Part shown: one piece after another, positions 5,026-41,372 of the stretch
How the letters are laid out: every line of letters begins with the position of its first letter
Numbering within the stretch: position 1 is the stretch's first letter
Origin: a virus
Taxonomy: Duplodnaviria > Heunggongvirae > Uroviricota > Caudoviricetes
Strand: one strand, 5' to 3'
Length of the DNA: 41,372 nt
IMG/VR virus record: IMGVR_UViG_2778261576_000004
Span: 1 to 41,372 of that record
Position numbers and translations under genes: made by a program
Notes under the pieces: model-generated
What the model saw: only the letters and a program-made list of their open reading frames with translations
Database searches by the model: none
What the model was told of the DNA's origin: nothing

Positions 5026-5102
5026 TTACCGTTGAGGTAATAATTATGCGTATATGGTTTGATGTCAATAGATATGAGTTAAAAAAATTACCCGTTAGGT
5101 AA
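5026..5102. promoter_or_regulatory. OL-like operator region: two TTACC-N5-GGTAA palindromes (5026-5040, 5088-5102)
   Basis: Two perfect 15-bp palindromes in the intergenic region between the repressor gene and the first leftward early gene. Confidence 0.5.
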
Positions 5103-5159: not shown

Positions 5160-5744
5160 TTATTGTTTGTTTTTTTCGTTCTGGTTGATGACAAATTCAA
5201 TGTAACTTTCGATCTTTGCTTTCTCGGTTTCGGGTAACAATGCGTAGCGCGAGCGATCATAGTTGATGGTCGCAGGGTCGTGCGGGTGAATCAGTAATTC
5301 ATAGCCGTGACGCCCGAATGCGGATGCAACATTCTCCAGGGTGGAAATGGAAACGCTGACCTCATTGTTTAACAGGCGGCTGATTGTCACCTGGGCTACG
5401 CCGGATGCGCGGTGAAGTTTTCCCTGTGTTGAAAGGTCGCGGCTTTCGCTCATCCAGCGTTCCAGGTTGTGAGCCGCCAGCTGGCCAATGTCGCTTGGGC
5501 CGACAGGCTGAAAACCTTCCTGAGAAAGCGAGCGATCGATATCAAGCCAGTTACGGGGTTTATTGGCGGCAGCTTCAATTTTTCGCGCAACCTGATCGCC
5601 GATAACCTTCTTACCAAGAGCCCAGCGGTTTACCAGATTTGCCTGAGTTCCAAGTTTTTCAGCCATCCGCGTCTGAACACCATTGAATTCACGGTCGATC
5701 AAGTCGTTGAGATTTTGCCTGCGGACGTCCTGGATACTTTTCAT
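5160..5744 (-). CDS. Putative prophage repressor (CI-like, tandem HTH, no S24 peptidase domain recognisable)
   Basis: 194 aa; two HTH-like segments (GVQTRMAEKLGTQANLVNRW and GVAQVTISRLLNNE); sits between OL-like and OR-like palindrome pairs, divergent from a Cro-like gene. Confidence 0.55.
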   Translation of the reverse strand: MKSIQDVRRQNLNDLIDREFNGVQTRMAEKLGTQANLVNRWALGKKVIGDQVARKIEAAANKPRNWLDIDRSLSQEGFQPVGPSDIGQLAAHNLERWMSESRDLSTQGKLHRASGVAQVTISRLLNNEVSVSISTLENVASAFGRHGYELLIHPHDPATINYDRSRYALLPETEKAKIESYIEFVINQNEKNKQ

Positions 5745-5799: not shown

Positions 5800-5862
5800 T
5801 TACCCAACAGGTAAATGCACCTCATGGGTAACTATCCTTGATTTTTGTTACCTTATGGGTGA
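5800..5862. promoter_or_regulatory. OR-like operator region: palindrome 5800-5814 (perfect) and 5848-5862 (one mismatch)
   Basis: TTACCCAACAGGTAA and TTACCTTATGGGTGA in the 154-bp divergent intergenic region between repressor and Cro-like genes. Confidence 0.55.
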
Positions 5863-5898
5863 ATATTTATTATCTGAAATAAATATCAGGCAATAGCT

Positions 5899-6129
5899 AT
5901 GAGCGATAACGGACATTTCGATTTCAAAAAGCACTGGCTTGCACTTACTCCGGATGAGCGTGAAGCCTTCGCACAGGAAGCCGGAACGACGAGTCACTAT
6001 ATCCAGACTCACTTAACAGGTAAGCGCAAAATGCCAGGTAAAGTATTGATGAATGGGCTTTTTAAAGCCTGTAAAACAAGACAATGGCTGCGCTCAAAAG
6101 CAGAACTGGCATACTTCTTCTACTCATGA
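5899..6129 (+). CDS. Cro-like small HTH regulator
   Basis: 76 aa, divergent from the repressor across the operator region; HTH-like segment LTPDEREAFAQEAGTTSHYIQTHLTGKR. Confidence 0.45.
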   Translation: MSDNGHFDFKKHWLALTPDEREAFAQEAGTTSHYIQTHLTGKRKMPGKVLMNGLFKACKTRQWLRSKAELAYFFYS

Positions 6130-6175: not shown

Positions 6176-6279
6176 TATCTATTCGTACCTCAAAGGTAAT
6201 AAAAAACCAAATATGGTTGATCTTTTTTTTGTGTCAGCACAAAATGACCGTAATCCCAATACTAATAACAGGGCTTACC

Positions 6280-6495: not shown

Positions 6496-7311
6496 ATGAG
6501 CAGACATGCAACAGATTGGGCCTGGGAGACAGATCCAGGTAGCTCATCATTAAAGCTCATACTGCTCTCGATGGCTGACAGAGCCGATGAATATAACCTC
6601 TGCTACCCCAGCATAGAACGCCTCGTTAAAGACACTTGCCTGAATAAAAAAACCGTGCAGGCCGGGCTTATATCGCTCATGAAAATGGGGCTTATTTCAG
6701 ATACCGGAGAGAGAAAGGGAGCGACAAAAAGAGTGCGGGTTTTCTCTCTTAATATAACCAAAAACGGGAACATTAAAGGCAACCGGGAGGGGGGCAATGA
6801 ACCCGAAAACGGTAATGTTACCGAAAACGGGAATATACCCAAAAACGGGATGTTGAATGATCCCAAAAACGGGATGTTGAATGATCCCAAAAACGGGATC
6901 CAGAACCAGTCATATAACCAGTCATTTAACCAAGAGAGGGAGAGCAGGACAAAAACCCGAGGTTCTGTGCCTCATGACCCCGGCGCAAACAACGCCGTGA
7001 TGAATAACTTTGTTCCTCCTGGTGGGCCAGGGCAATTAGGCAAATTTGTCATGCATGAACAATGGCAGCCATCAGATGACTTTCTTCGGAAAAGCTCATT
7101 GCAGGGGATCTACCTGGACAGTCTGCCAACGGCACAGGAACTTGCAGAGTTCAGAATTTACTGGATGGCTGAGGGTAAGGCATACCATCAGGCACAGTGG
7201 GAGCAGAAGCTGGCAAGGCGGCTGCAGATTAGCAGACAGAAGCAATCAACATTACCTGATAACAACGTTCCGCACTGGAACAGCCCTGAAGCATGGGAGG
7301 ATTTCTTGTGA
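6496..7311 (+). CDS. Replication initiator (lambda O-like HTH N-terminus, repeat-rich middle)
   Basis: N-terminal LKLILLSMADRADEYNLCYPSIERL-type winged-helix region common to phage replication initiators; internal DNA iterons; sits directly before the P-like gene. Confidence 0.75.
   Translation: MSRHATDWAWETDPGSSSLKLILLSMADRADEYNLCYPSIERLVKDTCLNKKTVQAGLISLMKMGLISDTGERKGATKRVRVFSLNITKNGNIKGNREGGNEPENGNVTENGNIPKNGMLNDPKNGMLNDPKNGIQNQSYNQSFNQERESRTKTRGSVPHDPGANNAVMNNFVPPGGPGQLGKFVMHEQWQPSDDFLRKSSLQGIYLDSLPTAQELAEFRIYWMAEGKAYHQAQWEQKLARRLQISRQKQSTLPDNNVPHWNSPEAWEDFL
6758..6901 (+). repeat. Iteron-like direct repeats inside the O-like gene (putative ori)
   Basis: About six spaced copies of CC(A/G)AAAACGG(G/T)A, including two identical 24-bp units CCCAAAAACGGGATGTTGAATGAT at 6838-6861 and 6862-6885. 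Confidence 0.55.
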
Positions 7312-8093: not shown

Positions 8094-8130
8094 TACCAGC
8101 GCGATAGCGCATTTTTTTACGCCTCGACAA

Positions 8131-8207
8131 TTACCTGTTAGGTAATAAAATATTCTAAAATCTATTGATTTCGTGTCTTATGTGGTTTTTAATTACCTCA
8201 GAGGTAA
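8131..8207. promoter_or_regulatory. Two palindrome copies (8131-8145, 8193-8207) plus a TATGTGGTT box (8179-8187) upstream of the 8211 gene
   Basis: Perfect TTACCTGTTAGGTAA and TTACCTCAGAGGTAA; the second ends 3 nt before ATG 8211 and overlaps the SD. Confidence 0.45.
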
Positions 8208-13925: not shown

Positions 13926-13940
13926 TTACCACAACGGTAA
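13926..13940. promoter_or_regulatory. TTACC-N5-GGTAA palindrome upstream of the terminase small subunit gene
   Basis: Perfect TTACCACAACGGTAA between the terminator and ATG 13958 (17 nt upstream); a partial repeat (CTATTACCAC) follows. Confidence 0.45.
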
Positions 13941-13957
13941 CTATTACCACGGTGGTT

Positions 13958-14554
13958 ATGATGCCTGCTGAACCTAAAACCTATAAACGCAAATCAACGC
14001 AATTTAAGCCGCTCACAGCAATGCAGGAGGCTTATTGCCAGTCATACATCAAAACGCCTGAAAACCAGACTCAGGCAGCGATTAACGCAGGATTCTCCCC
14101 AAATACAGCGGCAGTTAAAGCCAGTGTCATGATGCGCGATGAACGCATTCAAAAACGGATTGCCGAGTTGATGGAGGAGCGCAACAAACGAATGCGCGTC
14201 AGTGCTGATTACGTTCTCATGCGCCTGGTGGAGATCGACCAGATGGACGTGATCGACATCCTCAACGACGATGGGAGCCTTAAGCCAATCCGCGAGTGGC
14301 CGAAAATCTGGCGCACTACGCTTAGTGGCTTTGATCTGTCATCGACCATCATGAACATGAACGAGGATTCGATAGAGACAATCCTCAAAAAAATTAAATG
14401 GCCTGACAAGGTGAAGAACCTCGAACTGATTGGTAAGCACGTCGACGTCAACGCGTTCAAAGAACGCCTGGATGTTAATGTGAATGTGACAATTGCTGAT
14501 CGCATAGCGGCAGCCAGGAAGCGACTCAAAGAACGTCAGGATGGTAATCAGTGA
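13958..14554 (+). CDS. Terminase small subunit
   Basis: Directly upstream of and coupled to the large subunit; HTH-like N-terminus (TAMQEAYCQSYIK...AAINAGFSPNTAAVKAS). ORF-track start 13880 rejected because it spans the terminator. Confidence 0.65.
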   Translation: MMPAEPKTYKRKSTQFKPLTAMQEAYCQSYIKTPENQTQAAINAGFSPNTAAVKASVMMRDERIQKRIAELMEERNKRMRVSADYVLMRLVEIDQMDVIDILNDDGSLKPIREWPKIWRTTLSGFDLSSTIMNMNEDSIETILKKIKWPDKVKNLELIGKHVDVNAFKERLDVNVNVTIADRIAAARKRLKERQDGNQ

Positions 14555-16686: not shown

Positions 16687-16763
16687 TGGCGTGGCATGCA
16701 GGATTCGAACCTGCGACCAACCGCTTAGAAGGCGGTTGCTCTGTCCGACTGAGCTAATGCCAC
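16687..16763 (-). tRNA. tRNA-Arg (anticodon UCU)
   Basis: Minus strand folds by hand into a cloverleaf: acceptor GTGGCAT/ATGCCAC, D-arm GCTC/GAGC, anticodon stem ACCGC/GCGGT with loop CTTCTAA, T-arm GCAGG-TTCGAAT-CCTGC, encoded CCA. Confidence 0.85.
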
Positions 16764-17085: not shown

Positions 17086-17165
17086 TTACCTGAAAGGTAA
17101 TAATTCACGCGTTAAATGTCAACCTTCTACGATAAATAAATCATATGTGGTTAAATTGGTAATAA
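17086..17165. promoter_or_regulatory. Palindrome (17086-17100) plus TATGTGGTT box (17144-17152) and GGTAATA (17159-17165) upstream of the portal operon
   Basis: Same arrangement as upstream of the tailspike gene (35438-35502). Confidence 0.45.
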
Positions 17166-32208: not shown

Positions 32209-32649
32209 CTATTCACAATTAGTGATGGCGTATGTATCAAATATATTGCCATCACTAAATACATACCTATACTCAATCACTCCGCCAAGGTGAATAAATG
32301 CTTTCATTTGCCTGTTGGAGCAAATGCTCGATTTTGAATAATTTCGCATTACACTCTTTAATTTATTTTCTAAGGTTACATCACCATTATAAACTTTTGA
32401 TAAATAGCTGTTGTTGTAATTAAGATGCGCTACAACTAAAAGTTTGTTTAGTATTGCATTTATTGAAACAATAGACATATTATCATTCAATTTTATGGGA
32501 AGTGACTTTCCTGCTTCTGATGCAATTTTGTTTGCATGTGCACACATATCCTCATTTATTAAATTCTTAAAACATATGTCGTTTGCAAACGAAAAAATTG
32601 GTAGGATAAACAAAACGGTAGCTGTAATAGCGTGCATCGGCTTAATCAT
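32209..32649 (-). CDS. Hypothetical secreted protein (AT-rich accessory gene)
   Basis: N-terminal signal-peptide-like segment (AITATVLFILPIFSFA); strongly AT-rich coding sequence; convergent with the upstream virion gene. Confidence 0.4.
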   Translation of the reverse strand: MIKPMHAITATVLFILPIFSFANDICFKNLINEDMCAHANKIASEAGKSLPIKLNDNMSIVSINAILNKLLVVAHLNYNNSYLSKVYNGDVTLENKLKSVMRNYSKSSICSNRQMKAFIHLGGVIEYRYVFSDGNIFDTYAITNCE

Positions 32650-32661
32650 TAGGTGACCTTT

Positions 32662-33111
32662 ATGTTCAAGAAGATGATCAACAGATTAATCGGTGGTAAG
32701 GAGGTTAGCAATAAAATTCAACCTCTTATCTTTAAGGATAACTTTTCAGCTTTTGAGTATGCGTGTAAGTATCTTGACACAAGCCTTTCAGCCAATAAAC
32801 CAATGCCAGCCATCATCATACCTGGTCCCAGTGGGGAACAGCCAGTTTTGCTGGATTCTGGAAGACAAAGGGCAATGCTGAAGGTGTGCTCAGCTGATGG
32901 TGGATTTTTTGTTATTGCCGATTCATCTTACAGCAAAGGACCAAAGCTGAGGATTGGTGATCTTGTTGCTTGGTTGCCTGTGAGTTATGCCGAAGAATTA
33001 ACGGATAAAATAGAAGATCCTCGCTCCGCTATGGTTGGCTTTATATTGGGAACCATTCATCCTGAACTAACATCTACTGGCTGGAAGGGTAAAGAAAGAT
33101 TTCGCAAGTAG
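32662..33111 (+). CDS. Hypothetical protein (AT-rich accessory gene)
   Basis: ATG 32662 with AGGTGA SD; divergent from the 32209-32649 gene with almost no spacer; followed by a terminator. Confidence 0.4.
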   Translation: MFKKMINRLIGGKEVSNKIQPLIFKDNFSAFEYACKYLDTSLSANKPMPAIIIPGPSGEQPVLLDSGRQRAMLKVCSADGGFFVIADSSYSKGPKLRIGDLVAWLPVSYAEELTDKIEDPRSAMVGFILGTIHPELTSTGWKGKERFRK

Positions 33112-33401: not shown

Positions 33402-33842
33402 CTATTCTTCTTCATCATTAAAAAGCGGATTGTTGTTTCCATCTGATGAAAGGAAAGGTATGTGTTCTCTTGAAAATCCAACAATGACAATTTCATTATC
33501 ATTTTTTGCATAATGAATGCATTCATTAGAATGCCTTCCGCCAGGGTTGAAATTTAAGTTAATGGTATAATTCTTAAATGTGTTTGGATACCATGTTGGC
33601 CCACAATGATAATGCCAATAATTCTCTTGCTCATAATTGTCTGAGCCGGGAATTTTATCATGGTTATCATCAACCCACGAGGGCTTGTTTTTTCCAACAA
33701 GCGCCCTTCCATTGGCAACATCCTCTAAAAAACTTTGTATGATTTTTATTTCATCATCAGTAAGGAAAGGTCCGTCTACAGCGAAAGGGGTGTTGCTTTC
33801 CCCATGTAGAAAACTATTAGATATTCTAATGTTAAACTTCAA
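33402..33842 (-). CDS. Hypothetical protein (AT-rich, probable TTG start)
   Basis: TTG at 33842 preceded by CAGGAG SD; AT-rich; downstream partner of the 33863-34030 gene. The ORF-track N-terminal extension to 33983 overlaps the better-supported small gene. Confidence 0.4.
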   Translation of the reverse strand: MKFNIRISNSFLHGESNTPFAVDGPFLTDDEIKIIQSFLEDVANGRALVGKNKPSWVDDNHDKIPGSDNYEQENYWHYHCGPTWYPNTFKNYTINLNFNPGGRHSNECIHYAKNDNEIVIVGFSREHIPFLSSDGNNNPLFNDEEE

Positions 33843-33862
33843 GGAAAACTCCTGATGTGCTT

Positions 33863-34030
33863 CTATTTGGAGCGAAATGCCGCCTTGAAGTCGCTGAAAG
33901 ATGTTCCTGTCTGGTAAACCATATCCTTGTCGCGCTCTTTGCTTGCGCGGCCAAGCATAACTTTTCCAATGACATCCCAGCATTGCTTGGCTTGTTCATT
34001 GTGCTGAGTACGATTTTTCAACGCTGTCAT
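33863..34030 (-). CDS. Hypothetical small protein (55 aa)
   Basis: ATG 34030 with a strong AAGGAGG SD 6 nt upstream and a palindrome copy directly 5' of it; translation MTALKNRTQHNEQAKQCWDVIGKVMLGRASKERDKDMVYQTGTSFSDFKAAFRSK. Confidence 0.4.
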   Translation of the reverse strand: MTALKNRTQHNEQAKQCWDVIGKVMLGRASKERDKDMVYQTGTSFSDFKAAFRSK

Positions 34031-34042
34031 ATCGCGCCTCCT

Positions 34043-34057
34043 TTACCTTTAAGGTAA
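34043..34057. promoter_or_regulatory. TTACC-N5-GGTAA palindrome at the 5' end of the small-gene cassette
   Basis: Perfect TTACCTTTAAGGTAA abutting the SD; upstream on the minus strand are a TTGCAG -35-like and TACTAT -10-like hexamer with 17-bp spacing. Confidence 0.4.
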
Positions 34058-34129: not shown

Positions 34130-34786
34130 TCAGAAGAACCCAGCCTTGTCGTTGATGTACTCCGCGTGGGTCTGGATATCACGCAGGCATTTGCTCACAC
34201 CAACAATGTAGCAGAACATGGTGGTCAGCTCCGCCGCCGCACCCGATACGTCGTGCCCGTCTTCCTGTAACTGGTTCAGCAGATTCATCAGCAGTGAGTT
34301 CTCCGTCAGGCCGAGAACACCAGACGGCGAATGAATCAGGCTACGGTAGCCGGGCTTCAGTGGGGCGCTGTATTCTTTTTTGTCTTCCAGCTTGATCGCC
34401 TCCATAATGGCGGGCATGAAGCCTGACAAGACCTTCTCCACTTTTGTTTCTTGTTGTCTTAAACGTTTCTCGCATTCAATGAAGTAGCGTCGCACCTGGC
34501 GACCTTTTTCGTTACGCTCGACCATCGCCAGCTCTTTGGCTGTATCAAGGGTGAGGTGGTACTCTTTGCGGTTGTGGCCGCCTCTACCAGATGTTTGCTT
34601 TCCCAAATTGGAAAGCAAAATATAGTCTTGATTTTCAATGAATTCGTATTCTGATATGCGATTTGTAATCCATGCTGCAAACACCTTTTTAACACCTAAA
34701 AAAGCGTGCAGATCGCGGGCATTACAAAGTAGGGCTGTTTCGTTAGATATAGTGCCGTTGAATACGGGGATGAGTTGAGCGTTCAT
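34130..34786 (-). CDS. Phage antirepressor (AntA/AntB-type N-terminal domain)
   Basis: N-terminus [38 protein letters not shown] matches the AntA pattern as recalled; C-terminal domain shared with the 35104-35361 product; GGAGA SD. Confidence 0.7.
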
Positions 34787-35103
34787 GATGGCGTCTCCAC
34801 TTAGCGAATTACATCACCACCGCTGAGACCAATCAGATGGTGGTGAACTGAACGGAGTTGGTCTTACCGGCCTAAGTGGTACCGGCGTCCTTTCGGACCC
34901 CCATTCAGCCCACCATAATTCTGGCATGACTGTGCTATACGCATAAAAAAACCACGTCTGGCGTGGTATGCGCCACTTAGTAATCCGGGAGACCAATCCC
35001 GGCACTGGATTTTGCCAGTGCCCGATTACTATGGCACAAGAGGAGTGCGATGTAAATTTACCGCAAAGGTAAATATAAGCACTCCTTTTGGTAATTGCAA
35101 ACC
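34787..35103 (-). other. Structured non-coding leader/spacer with intrinsic terminator
   Basis: Several perfect hairpins (e.g. CCGGGA-GACCAA-TCCCGG, CACTGG-ATTTTG-CCAGTG), a minus-strand terminator (CCACG-CCAGA-CGTGG then T7) near 34943-34964, and a palindrome copy (35058-35072) nested in an 8-bp stem (AGGAGTGC/GCACTCCT). Confidence 0.4.
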
Positions 35104-35361
35104 TTATCTGGTTTGTTTACGTAATTGTTCGGCACAATAGTCGAGATGTGTTTGCAGATCCCGCATAGACATCTGTGAGCTGGTGACGTAGTTAATCAGT
35201 GCAGTCAGTTCGGCAAGTGGGCCATCGACATTAAATCCATCCTTATCGAGCTCCCGGAGTAATTTCATCAAGTGCGATCCCTCCACCAGTGATCTGACGC
35301 CTCCCGGCGTGTGAATCCTTTCGGTAAATCCGTCTTCCAGTGGATAGTGATACTGCTGCAT
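35104..35361 (-). CDS. Small protein homologous to the antirepressor C-terminal domain
   Basis: ...TPGGVRSLVEGSHLMKLLRELDKDGFNVDGPLAELTALINYV... aligns by eye with ...[42 protein letters not shown]... of the antirepressor; ATG 35361 with GGAGAA SD (ORF-track TTG at 35379). Confidence 0.45.
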   Translation of the reverse strand: MQQYHYPLEDGFTERIHTPGGVRSLVEGSHLMKLLRELDKDGFNVDGPLAELTALINYVTSSQMSMRDLQTHLDYCAEQLRKQTR

Positions 35362-35437
35362 CTTATCTTCTCCATGCAATAACTGTATATTTATACAGTA
35401 TCAAATAATTTGTTTGCTATCCAGCACGTTTTGAAAA

Positions 35438-35502
35438 TTACCTGAAAGGTAATATATATTCGTATTTACAGCCTTTCTATCCATATGTGGTTTTACAGGT
35501 AA
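35438..35502. promoter_or_regulatory. Palindrome (35438-35452) plus TATGTGGTT box (35484-35492) and GGTAATA in the divergent region upstream of the tailspike gene
   Basis: TTACCTGAAAGGTAA is identical to the copy upstream of the portal operon. Confidence 0.45.
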
Positions 35503-38284: not shown

Positions 38285-38689
38285 ATGTCAGCTCAACTAA
38301 CCAGTGAAACTTTAAATCAGTGGCTTAGCATGAGTTCTCTGGCGGCGGTGATAGCAGGAGTTCCTCCTGAGGTTGCTTTGGGGGCTTTGGCTGGGGCGGT
38401 AATTTTTGTTACCTCTGCGGTAGAGTATCCTATTCGTCGTCGTGTACTCTTGTCGATGCTTAGCTTTCTCTGCGGCCTTCTTTTTTATAAACCAGCAGCA
38501 TCAATTCTTATCGGCATAGCCAGCCTGATCCCTACCATCACGCAGGACTCTTTTGAAAAAGGGATTGTTTTCTCAGCTGGCGCATTCGTGTCAGCAATTG
38601 TTGCTGTGCGTATTGGTATATGGCTCTATCACCGTTCCGATAATCCACGCGAGTTAATTCCGGGGAGAAAAGACGATGGTAACGCATGA
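38285..38689 (+). CDS. Putative holin or holin-associated membrane protein
   Basis: Multiple predicted transmembrane segments; immediately upstream of the second membrane protein and endolysin. Start ambiguous (GTG 38276 or ATG 38285); a 14-codon uORF with strong AGGAGG SD starts at 38263. Confidence 0.4.
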   Translation: MSAQLTSETLNQWLSMSSLAAVIAGVPPEVALGALAGAVIFVTSAVEYPIRRRVLLSMLSFLCGLLFYKPAASILIGIASLIPTITQDSFEKGIVFSAGAFVSAIVAVRIGIWLYHRSDNPRELIPGRKDDGNA

Positions 38690-40082: not shown

Positions 40083-40237
40083 CATGGCATTTTTCATGGT
40101 ACTGATTTCCGGTGACGGTATATAAAACGGTACGAGGAAAATTGAGCTTTGGAAAAACGTTATCACTCAATTGGTTATGGTGCCAGTAAATAATTGAGTG
40201 GGAATGATTTTGATCCCTGCACTATGAATGAACAAAA

Positions 40238-40264
40238 CCCTCTGTTACTACAGAGGGTTTTTTA
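40238..40264 (+). terminator. Rho-independent terminator after the lysis cassette
   Basis: CCCTCTGT-TACT-ACAGAGGG hairpin flanked by an A-run upstream and T7 downstream (usable on both strands). Confidence 0.6.
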
Positions 40265-40301
40265 TCTTCAAGAATTATAGGCTTGAAGTTACTTACATCG
40301 A

Positions 40302-40841
40302 TTAATTAAACCAGCTGTCCGATTTGTTCTCTTCTGCTTTGCCCACGCTTTTCATCAGATCGCGACCGCCTTCAGTCATATTTCTGTTTGCGTCAGCTTC
40401 AGATTGCACCACATCGGTTTGCGCAGCTTTGTGCTTCAGTTCCTGATCGATAAATTCGTTTTCGCGCTTAACGCGGGCTTCTTCTTTCGCCAGTGCCAGT
40501 TTTTGTTTCTGAATCTCTAAGCTGCGTAGCTCATCTTCATAACTTTGATCGCGTTTTTTGTCCGCAGTGGCTTCGGCGTCCAGTTTATCCTGACGAGCTT
40601 TCTTATTTGCCGCTGCCGTTGCCGCTCTTTTATTAGCCGCGGCCTGGGCGTTTGCGCGACGTTGCTTCTCTTGCTGGATTTCCCTGTTGCGCTCCGCGAC
40701 CCATTCGTCATGCTGCCTTTGCTCTTCATTTTTACCTTGCTGTTCCGCTTCTGCGACAGCCGAGAGTTGATCCTGCAATGATGAGGCGATAGCCGGATAG
40801 CTAAAGGAGGCTAAGATGGCGCAAAGAAAAACTTTCTTCAT
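40302..40841 (-). CDS. Secreted periplasmic coiled-coil protein
   Basis: Signal-peptide-like N-terminus MKKVFLCAILASFSYPAIA; Lys/Glu/Ala/Gln-rich helical body; family not confidently recognised. Confidence 0.45.
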   Translation of the reverse strand: MKKVFLCAILASFSYPAIASSLQDQLSAVAEAEQQGKNEEQRQHDEWVAERNREIQQEKQRRANAQAAANKRAATAAANKKARQDKLDAEATADKKRDQSYEDELRSLEIQKQKLALAKEEARVKRENEFIDQELKHKAAQTDVVQSEADANRNMTEGGRDLMKSVGKAEENKSDSWFN

Positions 40842-40856
40842 GACTCCTCCTGATTA

Positions 40857-41372
40857 TTAGCTCTTTTCAGGACATTTGGTATTTGGCTGAATACGCGTTT
40901 CGTTATACGTCGTGGTAATAACAACGGCTAAACCTGTCGTAAACTGGCACTCTTTACCCACCTGGGTGGAGGTATACACTTTGGTGCCTTCCTTATACGT
41001 TAGAGAAACACCTTCCACTAAGGTTTTATCATTCACCATAGAACCCGCTGCCGCGCCAACAGCTCCGCCGCCAACTGCACCTGCCGTCGTTCCGGAATTG
41101 CTGCCAGACCCCACGTTGTGGCCGATTACACCGCCAGCGACTGCACCAATAAGCGCGCCGAAGGCTTGTGCGTTTCGTTTATTTTGGGAGTTGTCTACGG
41201 CAACTTTTGCGGGAAGAATGGAAATAATATTAACGGTTTTAGTTTCTTGTTTGGTATTCAGTTGATCGGTTTGATAAACATCGGCGGCATGATCATCAGC
41301 ATTTGACTGGCATCCTGCCAGAGTGAATGACGCTAACATTGCCACAGGCAGAAGACATTTTTTAAATTTCAT
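40857..41372 (-). CDS. Glycine-zipper lipoprotein (SlyB/17-kDa-antigen-like)
   Basis: Lipobox LAGC after a signal peptide; Gly/Ala-rich glycine-zipper segment (GALIGAVAGGVIGHNVGSG...AVGGGAVGAAAG); start codon is the last triplet of the window. Confidence 0.55.
   Translation of the reverse strand: MKFKKCLLPVAMLASFTLAGCQSNADDHAADVYQTDQLNTKQETKTVNIISILPAKVAVDNSQNKRNAQAFGALIGAVAGGVIGHNVGSGSNSGTTAGAVGGGAVGAAAGSMVNDKTLVEGVSLTYKEGTKVYTSTQVGKECQFTTGLAVVITTTYNETRIQPNTKCPEKS

What the first reader, a model, noticed from the sequence alone, without database searches (positions are those of the whole stretch)
5160..5744. Repressor without a recognisable autocleavage domain, paired with a distant antirepressor module
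The repressor candidate shows two HTH-like segments but nothing resembling a LexA/CI S24 peptidase domain with its Ala-Gly cleavage site and Ser/Lys dyad, as far as can be judged by eye. An AntA-type antirepressor (34130-34786) and a truncated paralog (35104-35361) lie about 29 kb away, each with palindrome copies nearby. This suggests antirepressor-mediated induction in which the repressor also controls its own antagonist.
Basis: inference. Interest (0 to 1): 0.6.

Follow-up and report, generated by a model that had tools for sequence, protein, structure and literature searches.

The report
Known Rep–Ant phage switch, two antirepressors
This is the immunity switch of an ε15/phiV10-type E. coli phage: a repressor that cannot cut itself and is instead switched off by a small DNA-damage-controlled antirepressor, a mechanism already solved for Salmonella phage SPC32H, so the core finding is correct but not new.

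Summary
ORF 5160-5744 (-) encodes a 194-aa protein with two HTH segments and no S24 peptidase domain. It is a full-length homologue of the crystallised Salmonella phage SPC32H repressor Rep (PDB 5D50, E=4e-42) and is 100% identical to the repressors of published phages phiV10, phiv142-3 and ZX5.

The "truncated paralog" (35104-35361) is not truncated. It is the complete 85-aa SPC32H-type antirepressor Ant (88% identical, E=5e-47). A near-consensus LexA box (35383-35398) lies 21 nt upstream, and it is homologous to the box mutated in the constitutively lytic SPC32N. It is most likely the SOS trigger.

The AntA-type gene (34130-34786) is a second antirepressor: an AntA N-terminal module fused to a diverged Ant domain. 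It sits behind an isrK-like sRNA and a C4 antisense RNA (Rfam). The C4 loops pair with the ant ribosome-binding site and co-vary with it across phages, as in P1 immI.

TTACC-N5-GGTAA palindromes (14 found, 0.66 expected) overlap P_L, P_R and the isrK-C4-ant promoter. Repressor control is therefore plausible for the large ant and unproven for the small one.

Verdict: an already known system. The two-tier antirepressor layout is a modest, undescribed extension.

The parts
5160..5744 (-). rep: 194-aa non-cleavable repressor. N-terminal HTH DNA-binding domain, middle HTH_3-like domain, C-terminal tetramerisation/Ant-binding segment.
   Evidence: ORF. Pfam HTH_3 twice, no S24. Full-length match to SPC32H Rep 5d50_A, E=4e-42, 42% identity. 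100% identical to the phiV10, phiv142-3 and ZX5 repressors. Role of the C-terminal domain from PMC9986798.
5120..5139 (-). Intrinsic terminator after rep, making rep a single-gene transcription unit.
   Evidence: 8-bp stem with 6 GC pairs plus a T-run.
5026..5102 (.). Leftward early promoter region: two perfect palindromes (5026-5040, 5088-5102) flanking TTGACA(5068)-17-AATTAT(5040) on the minus strand.
   Evidence: The same arrangement occurs downstream of SPC32H rep.
5800..5873 (.). rep/cro divergent control region: palindromes 5800-5814 (perfect), 5817-5831 (2 mismatches) and 5848-5862 (1 mismatch). The rightward promoter TTGTTA(5845)-17-TATTAT(5873) overlaps the last one.
   Evidence: SPC32H has three such sites between rep and its cro-like gene.
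5899..6129 (+). cro-like small regulator, divergent from rep.
   Evidence: ORF. PHROG 35 'transcriptional repressor', E=5.6e-13.
35104..35361 (-). ant: complete 85-aa SPC32H-type antirepressor, the probable SOS-triggered inducer.
   Evidence: 5d50_E, E=5.5e-47, aligned 2-84 with 3-85 of 86. 88% identical to SPC32H ant by tblastn and present in 35 related phage records. No Pfam family. PHROG 450 'unknown function'.
35383..35398 (.). LexA box CTGTATAAATATACAG (extended TACTGTATAAATATACAGT), 21 nt upstream of the ant ATG.
   Evidence: Conserved in SPC32H, phiV10, phiv142-3, ZX5 and Tyrion. SPC32N differs from SPC32H by C->A in the ACAG arm of the homologous box.
35438..35452 (.). Palindrome TTACCTGAAAGGTAA between ant and the tailspike gene. 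It lies in the spacer of a + strand promoter-like site (35431-35460) and just after the -10 of a minus-strand one (35479-35451).
   Evidence: Conserved in SPC32H. Function not established.
35058..35100 (-). Promoter-like TTGCAA-17-TATATT followed at once by palindrome 35058-35072: the candidate Rep-controlled promoter of the isrK-C4-ant operon.
   Evidence: The palindrome stays about 51 nt upstream of isrK in six relatives, with invariant arms and a variable centre.
34945..35021 (-). isrK-like sRNA with its own terminator. It carries TTGGTCT (34996-34990) and CTAAGTGG (34980-34973), the same motifs as the ant leader.
   Evidence: Rfam RF01394, 67.7 bits (gathering 50). Terminator. Motifs.
34836..34920 (-). 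C4 antisense RNA. Its loop CCACTTAG (34879-34872) and single-stranded AGACCAA (34864-34858) are the antisense determinants.
   Evidence: Rfam RF01695, 61.2 bits (gathering 45). Fold and complementarity.
34797..34832 (-). Leader of the large ant with the C4 target sites TTGGTCT (34832-34826) and CTAAGTGG (34804-34797). The latter overlaps the Shine-Dalgarno GGAG.
   Evidence: Three-way covariation of C4, leader and isrK across seven phages.
34130..34786 (-). Large antirepressor (218 aa): AntA N-terminal module (22-92) plus SPC32H-Ant-like C-terminal domain (137-213).
   Evidence: Pfam AntA, E=4e-26. 5d50_E, E=4.6e-14 over 137-213. The C-terminal 80 aa are identical to ZX5 ORF4, which has a Bro-N N-terminus and behaved as an anti-repressor when overexpressed (PMC9782041).
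6185..6199 (.). Additional palindrome (1 mismatch) after the cro terminator.
8131..8207 (.). Two perfect palindromes (8131-8145, 8193-8207) ahead of ORF 8211. The first lies in the spacer of TCGACA-16-TAAAAT.
13926..13958 (.). Two adjacent palindromes at the start of the terminase/late region.
   Evidence: The same sites occur in phiV10.
17086..17100 (.). Intergenic palindrome.
34043..34057 (.). Palindrome immediately upstream of the AGGAGG-ATG of a 55-aa ORF (33863-34030, minus strand), downstream of the large ant.
   Evidence: PHROG 8607.

Best explanation
The window is an ε15/phiV10-type (Uetakevirus) temperate podophage carrying the SPC32H-type Rep-Ant antirepression switch. Rep (5160-5744) is a non-cleavable repressor. 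By homology it acts as a tetramer, and I infer that it binds the TTACC-N5-GGTAA operators that overlap the leftward and rightward early promoters and several other promoters. Lysogeny ends not by RecA-stimulated self-cleavage but when DNA damage removes host LexA from the box at 35383-35398. The 85-aa Ant (35104-35361) is then made. It binds the C-terminal domain of Rep, breaks up the tetramer and releases it from DNA. This E. coli lineage has a second tier. A larger protein (34130-34786) carries a diverged copy of the same Ant domain behind an AntA module. It is transcribed from a promoter with a Rep-type palindrome just after its -10. It is held off translationally by a C4 antisense RNA that pairs with its ribosome-binding site. 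An upstream isrK-like sRNA carries copies of the C4 target sites and can titrate C4. I infer that this tier acts as a P1-immI-like second immunity or commitment layer. Shown here: the homologies, the motifs, their positions and their covariation. Inferred: all binding events and the order of events.
For: No S24 domain and two HTH segments. Rep is a full-length homologue of SPC32H Rep in the Rep-Ant complex 5D50 (E=4e-42; 42% identity). The small ORF matches SPC32H Ant end to end (E=5.5e-47). Rep and Ant co-occur in the same set of about 35 phage records. No S24/LexA-like protein is annotated anywhere in the RefSeq record of phiV10, whose Rep is identical. The LexA box is a perfect CTGT-N8-ACAG with an AT-rich centre, one of only 3 loose matches in 41 kb. 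It is conserved in register with SPC32H. One of the two nucleotides that distinguish SPC32N from SPC32H in this locus falls in the ACAG arm of that box. Secondary literature states that LexA self-cleavage leads to Ant synthesis in this system (PMC7380047), that Rep binds DNA as a tetramer and tetrameric Ant binds two Rep dimers (PMC9638917), and that the C-terminal tetramerisation domain is also the Ant-binding domain (PMC9986798). Palindromes: 14 against 0.66 expected. They overlap promoter-like hexamers at five sites, and the same half-sites occur around SPC32H rep and ant. Second tier: Rfam isrK and C4 above gathering score, C4 loop/target complementarity at the SD, compensatory three-way covariation in seven phages, and a conserved operator position. 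ZX5 ORF21 (identical Rep) abolished free phage when overexpressed, and ZX5 ORF4 (identical Ant-like C-terminus) lowered lysogen counts about 1000-fold when overexpressed (PMC9782041).
Against: No binding or cleavage experiment exists for this exact phage. The window Rep is only 42% identical to SPC32H Rep while Ant is 88% identical, so conservation of the interface is assumed, not shown. I could not read the primary SPC32H papers, so I do not know whether the palindromes were mapped experimentally as Rep operators. The ant promoter hexamers I propose (TGGATA-17-TACTGT) are weak and chosen by eye. The palindrome nearest the small ant does not overlap that promoter. Transcription of C4 and the large ant requires read-through of the isrK terminator, which I infer only from Gifsy-1. 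The proposed role of the large Ant as a feedback or anti-immunity device is inference.
Confidence: 0.85

Rival explanations
1. The AntA-type protein (34130-34786) is the principal inducer, the 85-aa ORF is a decayed paralog, and the repressor itself, through the palindromes, is the main control on the antirepressor.
For: The AntA-type protein carries a recognised antirepressor domain. Its near-relative ZX5 ORF4 promotes the lytic state when overexpressed. A palindrome follows the -10 of its operon promoter.
Against: The 85-aa ORF is full length relative to the crystallised Ant. It has a LexA box and is present in all relatives. The large gene is absent from SPC32H and ε15 and truncated inside its Ant-like domain in phiV10. 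A circuit in which only the repressor controls its own antagonist has no input for induction.
Confidence: 0.07
2. The TTACC-N5-GGTAA palindromes are not, or not only, Rep operators. They could be sites for the Cro-like protein or another phage regulator, or a shared promoter-associated element, so no inference about Rep controlling ant can be drawn from them.
For: They also occur ahead of late and other operons (13926, 17086, 8131). No binding data were accessible to me. Cro-type proteins commonly share operators with the repressor.
Against: The sites cluster on both sides of rep and overlap P_L and P_R, which is the classical operator layout. The half-sites are conserved between phages whose Rep N-terminal recognition region (NLVNRW) is conserved. 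Arms are invariant and the centre varies, as expected for a dimeric HTH site.
Confidence: 0.12
3. Rep is inactivated by some other route, such as proteolysis by a host protease or RecA-dependent cleavage through an unrecognised catalytic site, and Ant is accessory, as in P22 where an ant mutant stays SOS-inducible.
For: P22 shows that possession of an antirepressor does not prove dependence on it (PMC7380047).
Against: P22 C2 has an S24 domain and this Rep does not. The homologous SPC32H Rep is inactivated by Ant after LexA self-cleavage according to the review read. From my memory of the abstract of Kim and Ryu 2013, which I could not read here, SPC32H Rep is not cleaved during the SOS response. 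The structure of the complex exists (5D50).
Confidence: 0.03

Closest known systems
Rep-Ant antirepression system of Salmonella phage SPC32H (Kim and Ryu 2013, J Virol; Kim et al. 2016, PNAS; PDB 5D4Z and 5D50)
   Same: Same phage genus. Rep of about 195 aa with two HTH-type domains and no S24. Ant of about 86 aa (88% identical). LexA box in register upstream of ant. ant divergent from the tailspike gene. Same TTACC-N5-GGTAA sites around rep and ant.
   Different: Rep is only 42% identical. The E. coli, Enterobacter and Klebsiella lineage adds the isrK-C4-large-ant module between ant and the virion genes, which SPC32H and ε15 lack.
Published E. coli Uetakeviruses phiV10, phiv142-3, vB_EcoP_ZX5 and TL-2011b
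   Same: Rep is 98.5-100% identical in protein, and the region is 96-99% identical in DNA. The ZX5 repressor and large anti-repressor were tested by overexpression.
   Different: In those records the small Ant is annotated 'hypothetical protein'. The N-terminal module of the large ant is Bro-N in ZX5 and phiV10 but AntA here. C4/isrK specificity differs.
immI of phages P1 and P7 (C4 antisense RNA controlling icd-ant; C1-controlled operator at the immI promoter)
   Same: A C4-family RNA whose loop sequences pair with the ribosome-binding region of the ant message (mechanism as summarised in PMC12197685). Upstream copies of the target sites. A repressor-type operator at the operon promoter. Specificity variants between phages that share the same primary repressor.
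   Different: No icd-like coupling ORF: C4 targets the ant SD directly. The primary repressor and the Ant effector domain are unrelated to P1 C1 and Ant. The upstream target copies lie in a separately terminated isrK-type sRNA.
Gifsy-1 isrK-orf45-anrP locus (Hershko-Shalev et al. 2016, PMC4825925)
   Same: An isrK sRNA with a leaky terminator, a conserved short leader and an antirepressor-like gene downstream. The sRNA acts in trans to open the leader.
   Different: No ORF ends in an ATGA overlap with the ant start here. The downstream protein carries the SPC32H-type Ant domain. The output in Gifsy-1 (AntQ-mediated growth arrest) is not expected here.
LexA-controlled antirepressors of Gifsy and Fels-2 prophages and Tum of coliphage 186
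   Same: Same logic: a non-cleavable repressor, with SOS sensed through a LexA-repressed small antirepressor (PMC7380047; PMC3121763 listed).
   Different: Sequence relationship was not tested here. From memory of the Kim and Ryu 2013 abstract, the SPC32H-type Ant is structurally distinct from them.
P22 immI (ant, arc, mnt, sar) next to the tailspike gene
   Same: An antirepressor module at the equivalent map position, beside the tailspike gene, with RNA-level control of ant (established knowledge; sar summarised).
   Different: P22 C2 is S24-cleavable and ant is dispensable for SOS induction. I did not search for Arc or Mnt homologues.

Membership tests
SPC32H-type Rep-Ant antirepression system | Repressor homologous over its full length to SPC32H Rep (N-terminal HTH, middle HTH-like domain, C-terminal tetramerisation/Ant-binding domain) | tested here: met
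   phmmer against PDB 5d50_A, E=4e-42, residues 1-190 with 2-197. BLASTP 42% identity, E=2e-53.
SPC32H-type Rep-Ant antirepression system | Repressor lacks an S24 autocleavage domain | tested here: met
   No Peptidase_S24 hit at E<=1. Only HTH families hit. Only 47 residues follow the second HTH.
SPC32H-type Rep-Ant antirepression system | Stand-alone antirepressor of about 86 aa homologous to SPC32H Ant | tested here: met
   5d50_E, E=5.5e-47, end to end. 88% identity by tblastn.
SPC32H-type Rep-Ant antirepression system | LexA box at the ant promoter | tested here: met
   CTGTATAAATATACAG at 35383-35398, 21 nt from the ATG. Aligned with the SPC32H box. The SPC32N mutation lies in that box. 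LexA binding itself is not testable here.
SPC32H-type Rep-Ant antirepression system | Synteny: rep divergent from a cro-like gene, and ant divergent from the tailspike gene | tested here: met
SPC32H-type Rep-Ant antirepression system | Rep stays uncleaved during SOS, and Ant physically binds Rep and releases it from DNA | not testable with these tools
   Needs biochemistry or multimer modelling. Only inferred from 5D50 homology.
LexA/CI-type autocleavable repressors (S24) | C-terminal S24 peptidase domain with Ala/Cys-Gly site and Ser/Lys dyad | tested here: not met
   No S24 hit. The C-terminal half aligns instead with the SPC32H Rep 92-198 tetramer domain, 5d4z_A, E=4e-20.
P1/P7 immI (C4-controlled antirepressor) | C4-family antisense RNA upstream of ant | tested here: met
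   RF01695, 61.2 bits against gathering score 45, full model 1-87.
P1/P7 immI (C4-controlled antirepressor) | Two C4 single-stranded segments complementary to the ant leader at the ribosome-binding site, with co-variation | tested here: met
   CCACTTAG/CTAAGTGG and AGACCAA/TTGGTCT. An 8-mer complement arose by chance in 5% of shuffled leaders. Both sites co-vary in seven phages, together with the isrK copies.
P1/P7 immI (C4-controlled antirepressor) | icd-like upstream ORF translationally coupled to ant | tested here: not met
   No ORF in the leader ends at or overlaps the ant start.
P1/P7 immI (C4-controlled antirepressor) | Primary-repressor operator at the immI promoter | tested here: inconclusive
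   A palindrome follows the -10-like hexamer and is positionally conserved, but Rep binding is untested.
Gifsy-1 isrK-orf45-anrP module | isrK sRNA with Rho-independent terminator upstream of an antirepressor-like gene | tested here: met
   RF01394, 67.7 bits against gathering score 50. Terminator 34967-34951.
Gifsy-1 isrK-orf45-anrP module | orf45 whose stop overlaps the antirepressor start (AUGA) and mediates coupling | tested here: not met
   One search lists the leader ORFs and none ends at 34783-34786.
AntA/AntB antirepressor family (PF08346) | AntA N-terminal domain | tested here: met
   E=4.2e-26, 91.8 bits against cut-off 27, residues 22-92.

The most novel reading that the evidence does not exclude
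E. coli, Enterobacter and Klebsiella Uetakeviruses run a two-tier antirepressor circuit against a single non-cleavable repressor. A LexA-gated stand-alone Ant triggers induction. A second Ant-domain protein, made from a Rep-repressed, C4/isrK-gated operon, then acts as a positive-feedback latch or as an anti-immunity weapon on superinfection. Phages with 100% identical Rep (this window and phiv142-3 against ZX5 and phiV10) carry different, internally co-varying C4/isrK/leader specificities. They would therefore form P1/P7-style heteroimmunity groups within one repressor immunity type. The Ant domain would be a portable Rep-binding module that is shuffled behind AntA, Bro-N, Rha or ORF6N heads.
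Probability: 0.35. Interest if true: 0.5.

Novelty: already known. Interest (0 to 1): 0.3.

Why it matters
The core result is ordinary. It places this phage in a switch type that has been solved genetically and structurally, so no new mechanism is needed to explain a repressor without an S24 domain.

It has practical value for annotation. The true SOS-responsive antirepressor of these common E. coli prophages is labelled "hypothetical protein" in RefSeq and "unknown function" in PHROGs, while the label "antirepressor" goes only to the larger accessory gene. At least 80% of the module is present in 79 of 5,426 complete E. coli genomes, and partial matches occur in 866.

The modestly new part is the second tier. 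If it is real, phages sharing one repressor can still differ in immunity through an antisense-RNA specificity code. It would also show that the Rep-binding Ant domain is a shuffled module. Both points bear on prophage cross-induction and on engineering phiV10-type reporter phages.

Tried and rejected
1. I looked for an S24 domain or any other catalytic domain in Rep with Pfam at E<=1 and with PADLOC, and found none.

2. I tried to read the primary SPC32H papers and the ε15 genome paper by DOI and by PMC id. None is held, so statements about SPC32H rest on PDB entries, GenBank records, secondary papers and, where marked, my memory of the abstracts.

3. The word-indexed homologue search with the large-Ant C-terminal domain gave only 20 mostly partial hits and little architectural information. 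The exhaustive representative search was more useful.

4. I considered a strong sigma-70 promoter for the small ant. The scanner finds none overlapping the LexA box, and my TGGATA-17-TACTGT proposal is weak.

5. I considered the 63-aa GTG ORF 34814-35005 and the 26-aa ORF 34864-34944 as icd/orf45 equivalents. I rejected them because neither abuts the ant start and both lie over the conserved RNA genes.

6. I considered the other two CTGT-N8-ACAG matches (16556, 21098) as LexA boxes. I rejected them because their centres are GC-rich and they lie far from any regulatory gene.

7. The palindrome at 38409 (1 mismatch, inside a coding ORF) is probably a chance match.

8. I checked the cargo ORFs next to the ant module against defence-system models and found no hits.
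Full report
**What the window is.** The immunity region and the ant region are 96-99% identical in DNA to published temperate podophages of the genus Uetakevirus (ε15-like): phiv142-3, phiV10, vB_EcoP_ZX5, TL-2011b and others. The window starts at the integrase ATG, and the ZX5 attachment core lies at 40193-40209.

**The observation.** ORF 5160-5744 on the minus strand encodes 194 aa.
- Pfam gives HTH_3 in two stretches (best 106-147, E=1.2e-9) and a YdaS/Cro-type HTH at 21-61. There is no S24 peptidase hit at E<=1.
- PHROGs files it with transcriptional regulators and repressors.
- It diverges from a 76-aa Cro-like gene (5899-6129; PHROG 35) and is followed by its own terminator.
- The RefSeq annotation of phiV10, whose repressor is 100% identical, contains no S24 or LexA-like protein anywhere in the genome.

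The AntA domain of ORF 34130-34786 is also confirmed (PF08346, E=4e-26), as is its paralogy with ORF 35104-35361.

**What it is.** A sequence search of the Protein Data Bank identifies all three proteins.
- The repressor matches chain A of 5D50 ("Repressor", 199 aa) over its whole length (E=4e-42). Its C-terminal half matches 5D4Z (E=4e-20).
- The 85-aa ORF matches chain E of 5D50 ("Anti-repressor protein", 86 aa) from residue 2 to 84 (E=5.5e-47).

These entries are the Rep tetramer and the Rep-Ant complex of Salmonella phage SPC32H. tblastn places rep and ant of SPC32H at 42% and 88% identity respectively, and the SPC32H GenBank record annotates them as rep and ant. The "truncated paralog" is therefore the complete, stand-alone antirepressor of this family. 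Residues 137-213 of the AntA-type protein are a diverged copy (about 37-40% identity) of the same domain (E=4.6e-14).

A perfect CTGT-N8-ACAG with an AT-rich centre lies at 35383-35398, 21 nt upstream of the ant ATG. The extended sequence is TACTGTATAAATATACAGT. Its arms are those of strong E. coli LexA boxes such as recA (established knowledge).
- It aligns in register with CTGTATGTTTATACAG of SPC32H, and the box is kept in phiV10, phiv142-3, ZX5 and Tyrion.
- SPC32H and SPC32N differ at two nucleotides in this locus. One is a C->A change in the ACAG arm of that box.
- As I recall the abstract of Kim and Ryu 2013, which is not readable here, that mutation makes Ant constitutive and the phage lytic.
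- A review I could read says that in these Salmonella prophages LexA self-cleavage leads to synthesis of an Ant that inhibits the repressor by protein-protein interaction (PMC7380047).
- Two other papers state that Rep binds DNA as a tetramer, that tetrameric Ant binds two Rep dimers and breaks the tetramer (PMC9638917), and that the C-terminal tetramerisation domain is also the Ant-binding domain (PMC9986798).

**Operators.** TTACC-N5-GGTAA occurs 14 times at up to one mismatch, against 0.66 expected, and no shuffle reached that number. All but one site are intergenic or at gene starts.
- Two sites flank the leftward promoter TTGACA-17-AATTAT.
- Three sites lie between rep and cro, one of them over TTGTTA-17-TATTAT.
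- Others lie in or next to promoter-like hexamers at 8124-8151, 35072-35100 and 35431-35460.
- SPC32H has the same half-sites: three between rep and cro, three downstream of rep and one upstream of ant. The putative recognition segment NLVNRW is conserved between the two Reps.

That these are Rep operators is a strong inference. I could not verify it from primary literature.

**Does Rep control its antagonists?**
- *Small ant.* The conserved palindrome (35438-35452) is centred about 57 nt upstream of the likely transcription start and does not overlap the LexA-box promoter. It lies in the spacer of a plus-strand promoter-like site facing the tailspike gene and just after the -10 of a minus-strand one. 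Neither of those is conserved in SPC32H. Rep control of the small ant is therefore possible but unproven, and LexA is the documented control.
- *Large ant.* The evidence is better. A promoter-like TTGCAA-17-TATATT is followed at once by a perfect palindrome (35058-35072). This site keeps its position about 51 nt upstream of the next element in E. coli, Enterobacter and Klebsiella relatives, with invariant arms and a freely varying centre.

**An RNA layer upstream of the large ant.** Rfam finds an isrK-type sRNA (34945-35021, 67.7 bits against 50) with its own terminator. It also finds a C4 antisense RNA (34836-34920, 61.2 bits against 45) between that promoter and the large ant.
- The C4 hairpin loop CCACTTAG is complementary to CTAAGTGG, which overlaps the Shine-Dalgarno sequence of the large ant.
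- The single-stranded AGACCAA in C4 is complementary to TTGGTCT further upstream in the leader.
- The isrK RNA carries both target motifs again.
- Across seven phages the C4 segments, the leader sites and the isrK sites change together: CCACTTAG/AGACCAA here, CCTTTTAG/ACGCCAA in ZX5 and phiV10, CCTTTGTAG with AGACCAA or GTCTCAA in Enterobacter and Klebsiella phages, and TCCTTGTTAG/GTCTCAA in APSE-7.

This is the logic of P1/P7 immI, where c4 RNA blocks the ribosome-binding region of the ant message through loop sequences (PMC12197685). It is also the logic of the Gifsy-1 isrK-orf45-anrP locus, where isrK is read through and acts in trans to open the leader (PMC4825925). Unlike both models, no coupling ORF abuts the ant start here. 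The module is widespread in enterobacterial temperate phages, and the APSE-7 record annotates it in the same way.

**The large antirepressor is modular.** ZX5 ORF4 has a Bro-N head, yet its C-terminal 80 residues are identical to those of the AntA-headed protein here. In phiV10 the gene is truncated inside the Ant-like domain.
- An exhaustive profile search finds only 62 representative clusters with this domain among 1.84 billion proteins. They are either stand-alone (about 85-95 aa) or sit at the C-terminus of proteins of 150-319 aa.
- The N-terminal heads of those longer proteins are Bro-N, AntA, Rha or ORF6N.
- In the ZX5 paper, overexpressing the repressor (identical to this one) abolished free phage. 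Overexpressing ORF4 lowered lysogen counts about 1000-fold and repressor transcription by 75% (PMC9782041).

**Most likely mechanism.**
1. In the lysogen, Rep tetramers occupy the palindromes and silence the early and several other promoters. LexA silences ant.
2. DNA damage removes LexA. Ant is made, binds the Rep C-terminal domain and releases Rep from DNA.
3. Release of Rep also opens the isrK-C4-ant promoter. isrK titrates C4, and the second Ant-domain protein is translated and reinforces the switch.

The first two steps rest on close homology to a solved system. The third step is inference from sequence features and covariation.

**Comparison and novelty.** Every defining feature of the SPC32H-type system that could be tested was met. 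The defining feature of S24 repressors was tested and not met. The system, and this very repressor protein, are already in the literature, so the core finding is already known.

To my knowledge three things have not been described. One is the co-existence of a LexA-gated Ant and a C4/isrK-gated Ant-domain fusion against one repressor. Another is the existence of different C4 specificities among phages with identical Rep. The third is that annotation pipelines miss the small Ant: it is "hypothetical protein" in RefSeq E. coli genomes and "unknown function" in PHROG 450. These justify a low-to-moderate interest score, not a high one.

Noticed in passing
34836-35021 and 34797-34832; loci L001, L003, L008, L009, L010, L011: C4 loop sequences, ant-leader sites and isrK sites co-vary three ways across seven phages. 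The window and phiv142-3 differ from ZX5 and phiV10 at both sites although their Rep proteins are 100% identical. This suggests P1/P7-like heteroimmunity classes within one repressor type.
   Followed up: partly
35104-35361: The SPC32H-type Ant has no Pfam family. It falls in PHROG 450 'unknown function' and is called 'hypothetical protein' in RefSeq E. coli genomes and in the phiV10, ZX5 and phiv142-3 records. 79 of 5,426 complete E. coli genomes carry at least 80% of the ant module.
   Followed up: yes
L003:3071-3655 (phiV10p23): The large antirepressor of phiV10 is truncated inside its Ant-like C-terminal domain, so that phage probably relies on the small Ant alone.
   Followed up: partly
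34466-34790: The AntA-head coding part of the large ant is about 91% identical in DNA to ant genes of many Stx-converting and lambdoid phages, while the C-terminal Ant-like part is not. This points to a recombination joint inside the gene.
   Followed up: no
8131-8207, 13926-13958, 17086-17100, 6185-6199: Rep-type palindromes also precede the post-replication (nin-like) genes, the terminase/late region and another intergenic gap. The repressor may silence many transcription units directly and not only P_L and P_R.
   Followed up: partly
33863-34057: A perfect palindrome (34043-34057) sits immediately upstream of the AGGAGG-ATG of a 55-aa ORF (PHROG 8607, unknown function). Cargo ORFs of unknown function follow (33402-33983, 32653-33111, 32209-32649), with no defence-system hits.
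   Followed up: partly
16687-16763 (-): A phage-borne tRNA-Arg with anticodon TCT.
   Followed up: no
1-1251 and 40193-41372: The window starts exactly at the integrase ATG. The ZX5 att core ATTGAGTGGGAATGATT occurs once, at 40193-40209. Two minus-strand ORFs lie between it and int: DUF5384 (40302-40841) and a glycine-zipper/TraT-like protein (40857-41372).
   Followed up: partly
6496-7311: The replication-initiation-like ORF contains a short tandem peptide repeat (PKNGMLND twice, within N/G-rich sequence). Its DNA repeats produce spurious terminator-like hits at 6846-6889.
   Followed up: no
5160-5744 compared with 35104-35361: Between this phage and SPC32H, Ant is 88% identical but Rep only 42%. 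The extreme C-terminal segment of Rep (about 148-190), which other authors call the tetramerisation/Ant-binding domain, is about 49% identical by hand count, only slightly above the protein-wide 42%.
   Followed up: partly
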